From assembly GCF_009914755.1 (NCBI RefSeq), contig NC_060938.1: DNA of 64,000 nucleotides, one strand, 5' to 3'. This DNA comes from the human T2T-CHM13v2.0 reference genome, Homo sapiens. This document shows, piece after piece, positions 50,303-55,769 of the stretch (positions are counted from its first letter, which is position 1; each line of letters opens with the position of its first letter). A program made the position numbers and the translations under genes. The notes beneath the pieces are model-generated. The model was not told the origin of the DNA and did no database searches. It worked only from the letters and a program-made list of their open reading frames with translations.

Positions 50303-53130
50303 ATCCTTGGCATTTTCTTTCTTCTTTCTTTAGCTCTTTCTCCGCTTAGTGTAGCTGTCCACTTAATAGTAAAATAAGTACTAGTTACTTTCACAGGTTC
50401 TTATCGTTACTTTTCCATACTTTAATTCCTCACTTAAAGGTATGTTTTTGGTCTTTTCTCTTCATCCAGTGAACCATGCCTGCTGTTTCTGTCCCTATAA
50501 AGAGTACTTGGTTTCACACGATCAGATTGACAAAAATTTTAAGTTGGTGAGAATGTGGAATAGAAAAGTGTGTCCTCTTCTGAAGAACATTGGCTCTTTT
50601 CTATTTGTTAATATTTTCTTCTTTTGGAGTTTGTATTTGGAAATTCTCATTTTTATCCTAGTGTCTTGTTTTTCATGTTTATCCTAATGTCTTCCATTCA
50701 CATGATCTCTCCAACAATTTTCCCTTCATTCTGTTGATCAATTTTTGTCTGTCTTATATAACACAACCTTTTCAGTTGGGTCAGGTGTTGTTTTTGTTGG
50801 TTTTCTTCTTAGTAATTTGCTAGGCTCTGGAGACCTTGTCTTACAGGAGACTTTTTTGAAGTTATTTTCCTTATGTGCTCTTAATTGCAGAGATACTGAA
50901 TTTGGTTTTGGGAAGGGGTTTGGTAGGCCTGCCTAGAGATTTTACCGAAGGTTCCACCTTCCATGAATTTTGTAATCAAGCAAAAATTAATTGCATTTCA
51001 AGAATAATTTTGAAAGTATAATATCTTTTCCACACTAAAGTCATGCAGTAAGAAATATAATAATATAATCTGTAACAAACTCCTTGCCATGTCCTTTAGT
51101 GAAGGTGGTGGATTATATGCAATAGTCATTTGGGTTGTCAAATCCTGTATCATTGCATAAATAAATATCCACATATGGTAAGATTTACTCCTCCTTTAAA
51201 TATTCTGGCCATGTTTTTATAACTTTCTTACTGATCTCTCATTACTTTTAATAAAAATTATGGGGTGTATGTAATTTCCTGTGTATTACTTCCAAAGTAA
51301 TTACAGTTTTTGGAAAACTCCTTTATAGAAAATATTTATAAAAAGAAAAATCCTTCCAAAAAATTAACTTTCTATTTTTCCATATTCCTCTGAAGTCCTT
51401 GTGCTTTTGCATATATAAATATGTGTTCACAGAGTAGAATGTAATATATTTATTTTTAAATTTAACATTATATCTTAAATTTAGGCCATGTTAACTACTA
51501 GCCAACTCAATAAGACAACAAAAGAAAAACATTGTCATTTTGAAAATGACATGAGTGTCTAACTAGGGAAATTAAAGAGAATCATCAAAATATTAACTCT
51601 AATAAGACTTCAGTAAGATTACTAGATATGAAGTAAATAAACAAAAAAACCCAATAGTTTTGTAGTACACCAGTAACGGTATATTAGAAAATATGATCAC
51701 ATGAATGATCTTAGTCACAAAATAAAATAATTTACTTTATAATAACCTAGCAGAAGATATGTAATGGCCTTATGAATTAAAAGTTATTAAAGCAGATCTA
51801 AATAAATAGGAGCTGTATATGTTACTGAGTGGGAAGTCTCAATATTAAAAATAATTTAAAGTTCCCTAAACTAATTTATAAATTTGTGCAATTCAAAAAC
51901 GAAACAGCAGAACCAAGAGTGTTTGGCATGAAACTTGACAGAGTGATTCTAAAATTAGCCGAGGAAGTAGAATTAATGGGGTTAGCAGGATGTATTATAA
52001 TGCTGTGGCATTTGAATTGGTGTGGCATTAGCACACGGAGAGAGAAATGCACCATCAAAACAGAAGAGAGACCACAAAAAGAGACCTCCACATGCACGGG
52101 AACTTGTTTTTGACATTGTATACAAGTCAGTAATTCAAAAGTATTGATGGCTATTTAAGAAGTAGTGGTGGGACAGTATGATAAAAATATATTCCTGTAA
52201 ATTCTAGATGAATTAAAGCCATTTAATCCTATTTTAAAGGAACATTTCTAAACTTTTAGAAGAAAATATGGGAAGACATCTGTATGATATTGGTGATTGG
52301 GAGGCCTTTAGAGCAAAACACCCAATTACAAATCTTACCATGTTAAAATTTTCAAATACAGATATATAAAAAATACACTTTAAACAAAAGCCAACACAAG
52401 GTACAGACTCTGCGAATAAAGTCAGACGTATATGTCTAATGAAGGGTTAATATCCATAGTATATAAAGGAATTCTACCTTATCAGTAACAGTGAAGAAAA
52501 AGACCTATTAGAAAAATGGACAGAACATAAGTGGGTAAGATCAGTAAACAAATTAAAATTCTCTAATTATCAGGGAAAGCCTAATGAAAGCAACAAGATA
52601 ACACTTTATATTCTTATATTAGTCATAATTTAAAAGCAAAGCTGTGGCAGCAAGCAGGGCCCCCCACACATTACTATGAGTTGTAAAATTGTTACAACTT
52701 TGGAGTGAAGTTTGACTTTCTCTAAGGATGTTGAAAGATGCTCCAACTTAAACTTTCAGCAGTTCCCATTCTAGAGCTCTCTAGAGAGACTTTTGCATGT
52801 TTCTAAAGAAGATGTGAAAGGAAGGTTCCTCCTATCATTGTTTTTAATAGCAAAAAATTGGAAATCTAGACATCAGTCAACAAATTCTGGTGTATGCAAA
52901 AAATGGAAAAACAGAAGCCGTTTATAAAGGATCTATAACTTTTTGTAGCAACGTGGAGAAATCTTGATAGTAATTTTTTTTTTTAAAGTGAGGGAAAGTT
53001 TATGTAGAAAGTAAAGGAATAAAAGAATGGCTACTCCATAGGCAGAGCAGCAGCATGGGCTGCTCAATGGAGCAAACTTATAGTTATTTCTTGATTATAT
53101 ACTAAACAAGGGTCAGATTATTCATGAGTT

Positions 53131-53139
53131 TTCTGGGAA
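53131..53139. promoter_or_regulatory. GAS (STAT) motif TTCTGGGAA, copy 1
   Basis: Matches TTCNNNGAA at the position of the MER41B-type GAS site; function untested. Confidence 0.5.
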
Positions 53140-53357
53140 TGAGGTGGACAATTTCCAGAACTGAGGGTACCTCCCCTTTTTAGACCATATAGGGCAACTT
53201 CCAGATGTTGCCATGGCATTTGTAAACTGCAGTAGTGCTGGAGGAATAAAAGAATGGCTACTCCATAGGCAGAGCAGCAGCATGGGCTGCTCAGTGGAGC
53301 AAACTTATAGTTATTTCTTGATTATATACTAAACAAGGGTCAGATTATTCATGAGTT

Positions 53358-53366
53358 TTCTGGGAA
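53358..53366. promoter_or_regulatory. GAS (STAT) motif TTCTGGGAA, copy 2
   Basis: Created by the 227-bp duplication; function untested. Confidence 0.5.
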
Positions 53367-55769
53367 TGAGGTGGACAATTTCCAGAACTGAGGGTTCCTC
53401 CCCTTTTTAGACCATATAGGACAACTTCCAGATGTTGCCATGGCATTTGTAAACTGCAGTAGTGCTGGTGGGAATGTCTTTTAGCATGCTAATGTATTAT
53501 AATTAGCGTATAACGAGCAGTGAAGACAACCAGAGGTCACTTTGATTGCCATCTTGGTTTTGGTGGGGTTTGGCTGGCTTCTTTATCACAACCTGTTTTA
53601 TCAGCAAGGTCTTAAAGACTTGTATCTTGTGCTGACCTCCCATCTCATCTTATGACTTAGAATGCCTAACCTCCTGGAAATGCAGCCCATAGGTGTCAGT
53701 CTCATTTTACCCAGCCTCTATACAAGATGGAGTCGCTCAGGTTTGAACACCTCTGACATATTTCTCTCCTCCCTTTTACAAGGGAACCCTTAATCCTAAG
53801 GGTTGTAGAGGGACAAAAATCCATCTTTTGTAACTTCTTCAGGCCGAATAGGTGTGATGATATTCTTGCCAAACTGTTAGGGTGTCTTGTATCCAGGGAA
53901 TAGAGGAGCTCAGTCAGAAAGCATCAGTATGGTGAGGGCCATTCACAAGCCTGAGTTCTGACAAAAGGTGGTATCCAGAGTTGACCAATTGGTGTTGCAC
54001 TGTTTCCTCTGGGTCAGAGGTCTCCTTAGCATAGTTCCTCCTTGGTTCGCTAGGAAGATGTTACTGGAAAGAGGTCCCAATCCAGACCCCAAGAGAGGGT
54101 CCTTGGATCTTGTGCAAGAAAGAATTCGAGGTGAATCCGTAAAGTGAGAGCAAGTTTATTAAGCAAGTAAAGGAATGAAAGAGGAATGGCTGCTCCATAG
54201 ACAGAGAAGCCAAATCCTGATAATAATTTTGTGTGAAAAAAGAAAGTTGCAAAAGGATACATTCCAAATGATACCATCTATATAAATTTCATAAACACAC
54301 AGTACTATTATGGGTCCATTTCCGTTTTGTAAAAGTTTAACAAAATGTGTGTCGGAAGAATGCATACTGTCCTTAGGAAGACAGTTCCTCTGGAGAGGCC
54401 AGGAGAAGCATGGGATGGGAAGTTGATATTTTAGCTATATTCATAATGTTTCTTTCCTTTTTGATGTGCAGCAAACTTGACAGATTAATAGTTATTAAAT
54501 CTGGATGGCTGGTATGTTTTTGCATATGTCAAATATTTTATAATCAATAGTTTTCAGTTTTATCGTGTAGCAGTTTCCAGTTAAATACGTTGCATTGAAC
54601 ATGTGTAGTTATTTACTTTCCCTCATCAAGCCCTATGCCAGTGTTACTCAAGGAATATAAAAAAATGTATGAAGACAGGTAAGGGGGAAAGACATAGGAG
54701 CAGATTTGAATGATCAACACCATTTTTGTCACCAGAGAGAGGGGCATGAATTTTAATTTAACTAATTTAGTGACGTGAAAAGAGTGTCTTGAATGGCTTT
54801 ACTGAGGGATTCCAAAAAATGTTGACTCTCTGCAACCCCAGGATTGGAGGGTCCCAAGTAGCTGGGAGGATTGCACTAAGGGGTGGAATTAGTTTTAAGT
54901 AGATACTTGGGGTCCTTTCCCTAACCATAGTGTAATTATAGAGGCTCTGGAAATAGGAATTATTTGAAACCTTTGTTGCTGAGATTTGTTCCCAGGATGC
55001 TGGCAGTCAGACGGGAAGTGGAACCATTCTTCTTCAGAGACACTGAAATGTATCCTAGAAATGAACTACAAATATGGCATTTGTGGGTCCCCCAGTATAG
55101 AAGGGGAAACCCTCTGTCTGATTTAAGAAGGAATGGAATTTATGGTAATAATATTTAGTAGCTTGTAGAATCACTGGAAAGGCTGTAGAACTGGGTTCGA
55201 AAAATAGGAAAAACAAGGGAGGCCAGGTAGCCAAGACAACACTCGTTCCCACAAGTAGGCTGGTGTGGTGTTGCCCATGAACACTGGATGTCTGGCTTGA
55301 CATTGCCACTGTCAGTACTTGCCTGAGGTTGTCAGTGTGCAGCATTGGCACTGCTTCTGCCACCACCTTCCATGTAAATGGATTCGCCTCTTTCCTGCTT
55401 TCTTTAGACACTACTGTTGATTCAGAGTCCAGGACATGCATGTCTCATTGGCTGAGGGGCTGACTGTGTGTCTGCACCCTGTCTGTAAGAACGGCTATGT
55501 TAAGTAACATTGTGGCATTTTTAGCTTCTACTATGGAAGGCAGATTTTGTATAACGAAAGGAGAGGTGATTCCCTGGATGTAGATACAAAGTTTAGAGGA
55601 TAAGCAGATGTTAGGAAGTCATAGTGTTTTCCCCTCTATCCAGTTTCCCCAGGTAAACCAACTAGATCTCTACTTAGTCCCTTTCATGAAGTCTACTTAG
55701 TAGTCAACAAGCCGTGCCTCACACAGAGCTTCAGTCTACTATTTTTTTTCTTTTTTCTTTTTTAAAATC

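What the first reader, a model, noticed from the sequence alone, without database searches (positions are those of the whole stretch)
52959..54230. A MER41 endogenous-retrovirus mRNA retrotransposed by L1 (processed ERV pseudogene)
Seen on the minus strand, in order: start of R at 54211 (no U3); U5 ending TGTTAC/GTAACA at 54059; a PBS-like tcttcctagcgaaccaagg; only ~300 bp of internal sequence; a polypurine tract (aaaagggaggagagaaata) abutting the LTR at 53758; U3-R stopping ~15 nt past the poly(A)-signal position (no U5); an A11 tail; and a ~15-bp TSD with 2 mismatches plus TTTT at the cut site. Established: retroviral integrase yields two complete LTRs and 4-6-bp TSDs, whereas long TSDs and poly(A) mark L1 target-primed reverse transcription. 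Such processed copies are well known for HERV-W; I am not aware of them being emphasised for MER41. The 5' end lies ~25-30 nt downstream of where the TATA (tataag, revcomp near 53077) sits in the intact U3. Inference: the copy is full-length and records the ancestral TSS and poly(A) site, and L1 offered MER41 enhancers a second dispersal route.
Basis: partly seen in the sequence, partly recalled or inferred. Interest (0 to 1): 0.88.

Follow-up and report, generated by a model that had tools for sequence, protein, structure and literature searches.

The report
L1-copied MER41 retrovirus transcript remnant
This is a real, roughly 40-million-year-old DNA copy of a short RNA from the MER41 endogenous retrovirus, pasted into an intron of SIPA1L1 by the LINE-1 machinery rather than by the virus itself, and many similar copies lie elsewhere in the human genome.

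Summary
On the minus strand, window 52959-54230 reads 19-nt target duplication (17 of 19 identical), R-U5, a PBS, about 300 nt of internal sequence, a polypurine tract, U3-R, A11, then the duplication again. Ordinary copies of the same LTR are about 636 nt. The 5' piece starts where R starts and the 3' piece stops where R ends.

The LTR carries the 43-nt STAT1-motif block that a review gives as the MER41B/MER41A difference. No repeat library was available to confirm the name.

The copy is not unique. Seven other loci share the same short internal structure. All seven start at R, and all six whose 3' end was in view stop at R. Genome-wide, the R end runs into poly(A) at 321 places (control 1) and into U5 at 1735. 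Of 20 sampled places, 16 are R-only copies of about 66 nt.

Age is about 35-50 My, with wide error. Held papers call HERV-W the only L1-mobilised HERV group, and none reports this for MER41.

The parts
54212..54230 (-). 5' target-site duplication (AAAATTATTATCAGGATTT)
   Evidence: 17 of 19 identical to the 3' copy, and it abuts the first base of R.
54141..54211 (-). 5' R, from the transcription start to the poly(A) site; AATAAA at 54160-54155; no U3 upstream
   Evidence: aligns to ordinary LTR positions about 485-550; 58 of 68 aligned bases identical to the 3' R.
54059..54140 (-). U5, ending ...GTAACA
   Evidence: aligns to ordinary LTR positions about 551-636.
54034..54058 (-). Primer-binding-site region: 6-nt spacer, then a decayed PBS of the tRNA-Trp/Arg type
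   Evidence: conserved in 7 short copies, 5 of which start TGG; resembles the HERV9/HERV-W PBS printed in PMC4724089.
53759..54058 (-). Internal remnant of about 300 nt: a short leader block joined to the block that lies just upstream of the 3' LTR in ordinary proviral copies; one junction, no gag, pol or env body
   Evidence: 6 other loci match it end to end and 33 match only the 3' block; 7 copies are colinear with no gap.
53759..53777 (-). Polypurine tract abutting the 3' LTR
53053..53758 (-). U3 of the 3' LTR, MER41B type, lengthened by the tandem duplication; TATAAG at 53082-53077 and at 53309-53304
   Evidence: it contains the 43-nt block that A-type copies lack.
53015..53468 (-). Two 227-nt tandem units covering distal U3, the TATA box, the start site and the first ~40 nt of R
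   Evidence: 224 of 227 identical. No other copy scored has the duplication.
53131..53139 (-). GAS-type motif TTCCCAGAA; second copy at 53358-53366 through the duplication
   Evidence: 2 matches; a 9-mer, not significant alone; it lies in the 43-nt block.
52985..53052 (-). 3' R, ending at the poly(A) site; hexamer decayed to CATAAA at 53004-52999; no U5
52974..52984 (-). Poly(A) tail, A11
52959..52977 (-). 3' target-site duplication; its first four A overlap the tail

Best explanation
Window 52974-54211 (minus strand) is a processed, LINE-1-made copy of a polyadenylated RNA from a MER41B-type provirus.

Shown:
- The copy begins at the first base of R and ends at the last base of R plus A11.
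- It is flanked by a 19-nt target duplication that opens on an A-run, which is a T-run on the nicked strand.
- It is colinear with seven other such copies.

Inferred:
- The RNA started about 30 nt after the U3 TATA box of a 5' LTR.
- It had lost everything between a short leader and the last stretch before the 3' LTR. The cause was most likely splicing; the alternative is a deleted source provirus.
- It was cleaved 12-14 nt after AATAAA in the 3' R.
- L1 ORF2p nicked the SIPA1L1 intron at TTTT/G, primed on the A tail and copied the RNA to its 5' end.

The copy arrived without a 5' promoter, but it carried a whole U3 with its STAT1-type motif at its 3' side. Insertion was roughly 35-50 My ago. 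A few million years ago, 227 nt of U3-R were tandemly duplicated.
For: Anatomy and limits:
- The element was read directly and compared with ordinary 636-nt LTRs.
- The target duplication is 17 of 19 identical.

Same architecture elsewhere:
- In all 6 other loci that match the whole internal stretch, the 5' LTR piece covers positions about 481-636 only and the 3' piece about 1-550 only.
- A seventh locus, on chr12, also starts at position 485 with no U3.
- 5 of the 6 have an A tail or A-rich tail plus flanking repeats of about 8-18 nt.
- All 7 internal stretches align without a gap.

Genome-wide:
- The R end followed by A8 occurs at 321 places with up to 3 mismatches. The reversed-pattern control gives 1.
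- The R end followed by U5 occurs at 1735 places, control 0.
- Of the first 20 exact places, 16 are R-only copies. Fifteen of them start within about 10 nt of position 485 and one starts about 15 nt upstream. Three carry U3-R and 1 is rearranged.
- 10 of the 16 R-only copies have flanking repeats of at least 10 nt, against 14 of 240 mismatched-pair controls.
- Of the 10 best leader-bearing 5' ends, 7 start at R without U3 and 3 have a full LTR.

Family: the 43-nt block with two GAS-type motifs is present here and absent from L010, L011 and L022. This matches the MER41B/MER41A difference in PMC9963469.

Age:
- 5' R against 3' R gives K2P 0.164.
- Identity to other B-type short copies is about 79-81%.
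- The literature age for MER41 is 45-60 My.
Against: - No repeat library was at hand, so the name rests on one published diagnostic feature and on recall.
- The yardstick LTR hit a full copy about 18 kb upstream of IFI6 and only a 68-90-nt fragment near AIM2. It hit nothing above chance level within 20 kb of APOL1 or SECTM1, two genes reported to have MER41 elements nearby.
- The base after the nick is G, not the usual A.
- The orthologous empty site was not examined, because no primate genomes were available.
- One of the 6 fully viewed sister copies (L009) shows no clear tail or duplication.
- The samples are small and were ranked by likeness to this copy or chosen as exact pattern matches.
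- The origin of the internal junction was not tested.
Confidence: 0.9

Rival explanations
1. An ordinary integrase-made provirus that later lost its 5' U3, its 3' U5 and most of its interior through three separate deletions.
For: Old proviruses often carry deletions. Among ordinary copies, L004 is cut near the R end without a tail.
Against: - Both limits fall exactly on the R start and the R end.
- An A11 tail and a 19-nt duplication flank them instead of a 4-6-nt one.
- The same limits recur in seven other loci on other chromosomes and at hundreds of R-poly(A) ends.
Confidence: 0.02
2. The processed-copy reading is right, but the short interior comes from a deleted, non-autonomous provirus lineage whose unspliced RNA was copied. 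It does not come from a spliced RNA.
For: - Deleted proviral lineages are common in HERV groups (established knowledge).
- The junction is identical in all 7 aligned copies, as a single ancestral deletion would give.
Against: - None of the 7 other junction-bearing loci has a complete 5' LTR, so no DNA master of that form was seen.
- The junction occurs with both A-type LTRs (L010, L011) and B-type LTRs (window, L009, L012, L013, L014).
- Only 40 of 235 candidates were scored, so a master could have been missed.
Confidence: 0.3
3. The locus is a DNA-level duplicate (segmental duplication or gene conversion) of another processed copy, not an independent insertion.
For: Some R-poly(A) places are clearly multiplied by segmental duplication: six identical 1-mismatch variants lie in chr1:120-149 Mb.
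Against: - The flanks are unique. The 5' flank has only 3 weak, short matches elsewhere.
- The element has its own duplication and tail.
- The nearest sister copies are only 73-81% identical.
Confidence: 0.01
4. This concerns the sister class, not the window copy. The R-only copies arise when the L1 enzyme, copying a long MER41 RNA, switches from the 3' R to the homologous 5' R and runs off the RNA end. They do not come from short RNAs that start and end in one LTR.
For: Both routes give R + poly(A) starting at the transcription start. Template switching by reverse transcriptases at repeats is established knowledge.
Against: Nothing here separates the two routes. Thousands of solo LTRs could each make the short RNA.
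Confidence: 0.35

Closest known systems
HERV-W processed pseudogenes (LTR17/HERV17 copies made by LINE-1)
   Same: - The 5' LTR is reduced to R-U5 and the 3' LTR to U3-R, with a poly(A) tail and L1-type duplications. These are the defining features quoted from Pavlicek et al. in PMC5016936.
- The group is related: MER41 sits with HERV-W and HERV9 in the HERVW9 supergroup, and the PBS is of the same type.
- Some HERV-W processed copies also lack an internal stretch thought to be an intron (PMC6995185).
   Different: - The family and LTR differ, and MER41 is older (45-60 My).
- The recurrent form here has almost no interior.
- A large class of R-only copies was seen here. I found no report of such a class for HERV-W.
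- Held papers call HERV-W the sole HERV group mobilised by L1 (PMC5537654 abstract).
Cellular processed pseudogenes (retrocopies) made by LINE-1
   Same: The copy runs from the RNA 5' end to the poly(A) site. It has an A tail, a 7-20-nt duplication, a T-rich nick site and no promoter of its own at the 5' end.
   Different: The template is a retroviral RNA with R at both ends. The copy therefore carries a complete promoter/enhancer (U3) inside its 3' part.
Ordinary MER41 solo LTRs and proviruses, the interferon-inducible enhancers of Chuong et al. 2016 as described in reviews
   Same: Same LTR sequence family, 84-86% identical to the best copies. It has the B-type 43-nt block with GAS-type motifs.
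   Different: Those have complete U3-R-U5 LTRs set by integrase. This copy has neither a complete LTR nor a short duplication.

Membership tests
L1-made processed pseudogene of an endogenous retrovirus | 5' LTR lacks U3 and begins at the R start | tested here: met
   the 5' piece aligns only to LTR positions about 485-636, and unrelated sequence lies upstream.
L1-made processed pseudogene of an endogenous retrovirus | 3' LTR lacks U5 and ends at the poly(A) site | tested here: met
   the 3' piece ends at LTR position about 550, 14 nt after the hexamer.
L1-made processed pseudogene of an endogenous retrovirus | Poly(A) tail directly after R | tested here: met
   A11 at 52984-52974.
L1-made processed pseudogene of an endogenous retrovirus | Target duplication of L1 length (about 7-20 nt) rather than 4-6 nt | tested here: met
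   19 nt, 17 identical.
L1-made processed pseudogene of an endogenous retrovirus | Nick site like the L1 endonuclease consensus TTTT/AA (consensus recalled) | tested here: inconclusive
   the target reads TTTT/GT on the nicked strand. The T-run is present, but the following base is not A.
L1-made processed pseudogene of an endogenous retrovirus | Empty orthologous site with one copy of the target in species that diverged before insertion | not testable with these tools
MER41 LTR family, B subfamily | 43-nt block with the STAT1 motif, present in MER41B and deleted in MER41A (PMC9963469 passage) | tested here: met
   the window, L001 and L012 have the block with two GAS-type motifs. L010, L011 and L022 lack exactly 43 columns.
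MER41 LTR family, B subfamily | Match to the Dfam/Repbase MER41B model | not testable with these tools
MER41 LTR family, B subfamily | Likeness to copies that papers name as MER41 (near AIM2, IFI6, APOL1, SECTM1) | tested here: inconclusive
   a full LTR about 18 kb upstream of IFI6 (77.6% over 646); a 68-90-nt fragment in the AIM2 region; nothing above chance level within 20 kb of APOL1 or SECTM1.
MER41 LTR family, B subfamily | PBS of the HERVW9 supergroup type | tested here: met
   the sister copies read like the W/R-type PBS printed in PMC4724089, with one extra base and CpG decay.
Integrase-made provirus | Two complete LTRs and a 4-6-nt duplication | tested here: not met

The most novel reading that the evidence does not exclude
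MER41 was mobilised by LINE-1 on a scale comparable to HERV-W, as a second and so far unreported case.

- About one in six detectable MER41 R ends runs into poly(A) (321 against 1735).
- Most leader-bearing 5' ends sampled lack U3 (7 of 10).
- A recurrent single-junction short RNA was copied at least eight times.
- Hundreds of R-only retrocopies of about 66 nt form a fossil record of where MER41 LTRs started and ended transcription in the germ line about 40-60 My ago.
Probability: 0.55. Interest if true: 0.75.

Novelty: new member of a known kind. Interest (0 to 1): 0.66.

Why it matters
Held reviews state that HERV-W is the only HERV group copied by LINE-1. These data indicate that its relative MER41 was copied too, and often. 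Four things follow.

- Many 'MER41 fragments' in repeat annotation would not be decayed LTRs. They would be whole copies of defined RNAs.
- Those copies mark the ancestral transcription start and poly(A) site of an LTR family now studied as interferon and placental enhancers.
- Counts of MER41 'integrations', and age estimates that assume integrase-made pairs of LTRs, would need correcting.
- L1 spread some U3 enhancers with STAT1-type motifs, such as the one in this SIPA1L1 intron. Here that enhancer was later doubled by a young duplication.

Tried and rejected
- **Cap-derived extra G at the 5' end: rejected.** Ordinary LTRs read ...CCCTTGGGGCTGCTCTG, so the G before GCTGCTCTG is templated.
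- **'Inside continuous L1ME': not confirmed.** The 5' flank 54231-54900 has only 3 short weak matches in the genome. Nine ORF pieces from both flanks gave no Pfam family apart from one chance-level hit.
- **Naming by published anchors: partly failed.** The first 10 kb fetched around the supposed AIM2 start gave no hit. The whole gene span gave one 90-nt hit. APOL1 and SECTM1 gave nothing above chance level within 20 kb on either side.
- **Class from pol: failed.** Five sense ORF pieces of the long chr18 copy L015 gave no Pfam family. Its 5' end was not reached.
- **The 3' end of the chr12 copy:** the stretch I guessed (L069) did not contain the LTR.
- **RefSeq table for the locus:** it shows only two short masked stretches and no functional element.

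Papers:
- Chuong et al. 2016 and Pavlicek et al. 2002 are not held. I saw nothing of either and cite them only through passages of reviews.
- I saw passages only, or the abstract plus passages, of PMC4724089, PMC5753468, PMC9963469, PMC5537654, PMC6995185, PMC5016936, PMC6452852, PMC10069462 and PMC11359688, and of the two 2026 bioRxiv preprints.
- 'Not in print' rests on searches. Subscription papers and all supplementary tables were out of reach, including the locus tables of the HERV surveys, and they may bear on this claim.
- Recalled, from no call: the GAS consensus TTCNNNGAA, the L1 nick consensus, the neutral rate of about 2.2e-9 per site per year, and the label 'Alu-like' for the insert in L024.

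
Full report
**What is there.** Read on the minus strand, window 52959-54230 holds, in order:
- a 19-nt repeat (54230-54212);
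- R, starting at 54211/54210 with AATAAA at 54160-54155;
- U5, ending GTAACA at 54059;
- a 6-nt spacer and a decayed primer-binding site;
- about 300 nt of internal sequence;
- a polypurine tract (53777-53759);
- an LTR start TGTCAG at 53758;
- U3 and R, ending at 52985;
- A11 (52984-52974);
- the 19-nt repeat again, down to 52959.

The two repeats are 17 of 19 identical.

**Are the limits meaningful?** I searched the reference genome with the 3' LTR. There were 3754 first-look candidates, of which 40 were scored. The best non-self matches are 84-86% identical.
- Eight copies were fetched and compared by local blastn.
- An ordinary copy, L001:410-1045, is 636 nt long. Six of the 8 run from R on into U5.
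- Against this yardstick the window's 5' piece covers only positions about 485-636, which is R-U5. Its 3' piece covers only positions 1 to about 550, which is U3-R. R is about 68 nt.
- The 5' end lies 31 nt after the T of TATAAG in the element's own U3. The 3' end lies 14 nt after the hexamer.

A 227-nt stretch of the 3' U3-R is present twice in tandem (53242-53468 and 53015-53241).
- It covers the GAS-type motif, the TATA box, the start site and the first ~40 nt of R.
- The units are 224 of 227 identical, K2P 0.013.
- No other scored copy has this duplication.
- At a recalled rate of 1-2.2e-9 per site per year, it is only about 3-7 My old.

**Family.** No repeat library was available, and I built no consensus.
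- A review (PMC9963469, passages) says that MER41B and MER41A are nearly identical except for a 43-bp deletion in A that removes the STAT1 motif.
- In alignment A1 the window, L001 and L012 carry a block with two GAS-type motifs. L010, L011 and L022 lack exactly those 43 columns.
- The family therefore shows the published A/B dimorphism, and the window copy is of the B type.
- In five of the six sister copies the primer-binding site begins TGGCGAACC/TGGCAAACC (TGGAGAACC in L013; TAG for TGG in L014), and the site as a whole resembles the Trp/Arg-type site that PMC4724089 prints for HERV9/HERV-W. This fits MER41's place in the HERVW9 supergroup.
- Against, or neutral: the yardstick LTR found a full copy about 18 kb upstream of IFI6. 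Near AIM2 it found only a 68-90-nt fragment. Near APOL1 and SECTM1 it found nothing above chance level within 20 kb.

**It is one of a class.**
- The 300-nt interior finds 382 candidates, 40 of them scored. Six other loci match it end to end at 78-81%. The other 33 match only its 3' block, which is the stretch just upstream of the 3' LTR in ordinary proviral copies.
- In all six, the 5' LTR piece is R-U5 only and the 3' piece is U3-R only.
- Five of the six have an A tail or A-rich tail and flanking repeats: L011 has A24 and a 17-nt repeat, and L013 has an 18-nt repeat. L009 shows neither clearly.
- A seventh locus, on chr12, also starts at position 485 with no U3.
- L028, met by another route, appears to have the same build, but its 5' end was not in view.
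- The seven interiors align with no gap where the two blocks meet.
- The form occurs with B-type LTRs (window, L009, L012, L013, L014) and with A-type LTRs (L010, L011).
- No junction-bearing copy with a complete 5' LTR was seen. I therefore favour a spliced RNA over a deleted provirus as the source. I did not examine splice signals, because that step is barred and was referred.

**Genome-wide signal.**
- A 27-nt string copied from L010 (19 nt of the R end plus A8) matches 321 places with up to 3 mismatches, 40 of them exactly. The reversed control gives 1.
- The same R end followed by 8 nt of U5, copied from L003, matches 1735 places, control 0.
- About one detectable R end in six therefore runs into poly(A).
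- I fetched the first 20 exact places other than L010.
  - 16 hold only R, about 66 nt. Fifteen of them start within about 10 nt of position 485, and one (L021) starts about 15 nt upstream.
  - 3 hold U3-R with internal sequence.
  - 1 is rearranged.
- Ten of the 16 R-only copies have flanking repeats of at least 10 nt with at most 1 mismatch, abutting the element. The mismatched-pair control gives 14 of 240.
- Of the 10 best-ranked leader-bearing 5' ends, 7 begin at R with no U3 and 3 have a full LTR.
- One of the 7, on chr10, lies about 2.8 kb upstream of an R-poly(A) place on the same strand.
- These samples are small and are biased toward well-kept copies and toward relatives of this one.

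**Age.**
- 5' R against 3' R: 58 of 68 identical, K2P 0.164. At a recalled 2.2e-9 per site per year this gives about 37 My, with a binomial range of roughly 20-70 My.
- B-type sister copies are 79-81% identical to this one. This gives about 50 My per lineage as an upper bound.
- The target repeats differ at 2 of 19 positions.
- All of this fits the 45-60 My quoted for MER41.

**Mechanism.** The copy is a LINE-1 target-primed reverse transcript of a capped, polyadenylated MER41B RNA. The limits, the tail, the duplication and the T-run at the nick are shown. The nick enzyme, the source provirus and the splice are inferred. The R-only class could come from short RNAs made within one LTR. It could also come from a switch of the enzyme between the two R copies of a long RNA. 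Nothing here separates these routes.

**Comparison and novelty.** The kind is known from HERV-W, with 65 proviruses and 135 processed pseudogenes (PMC5016936).
- PMC6995185 reports none for the platyrrhine ERV-W-like group.
- Six searches and the passages I read found no report for MER41.
- I could not see subscription papers or any supplements.

I file the window element as a new member of a known kind. The scale of the phenomenon and the R-only class are the bolder reading.

Noticed in passing
window 53015-53468: A young 227-nt tandem duplication (224 of 227 identical) doubles the GAS-type motif, TATA box, start site and first part of R of the 3' LTR. It is absent from all other scored copies. 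Whether it varies among people or is shared with apes is unknown.
   Followed up: partly
G000 chrX:61564607-61565137 and 61663475-61664005: Matches to the MER41 internal 3' block recur every 228 nt, three in a row at two nearby places on opposite strands. This looks like a tandem array built from a piece of the element.
   Followed up: no
G000 chr1:120343000-148743634: Six R-poly(A) places share the same single mismatch. This suggests one L1-made copy later multiplied by the segmental duplications of this region.
   Followed up: no
L024 (chr3:53247082-53248758) and L017 (chr1:91708616-91710292): One R-only copy is split by an Alu-like insert of about 300 nt. Another sits right after an A-rich tail of an Alu-like element. 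Both could be used for relative dating.
   Followed up: no
L019 (chr1:202861770-202863446): An R-poly(A) copy is flanked by inverted pieces of the same LTR, so this locus is rearranged.
   Followed up: no
L006/L015 (chr18:50738000-50747400): A longer copy ends at R plus an A-rich tail, with internal sequence upstream. No 5' LTR lies within 8 kb, and 5 sense ORF pieces gave no Pfam family. It may be a 5'-truncated L1-made copy.
   Followed up: partly
   Followed up: partly
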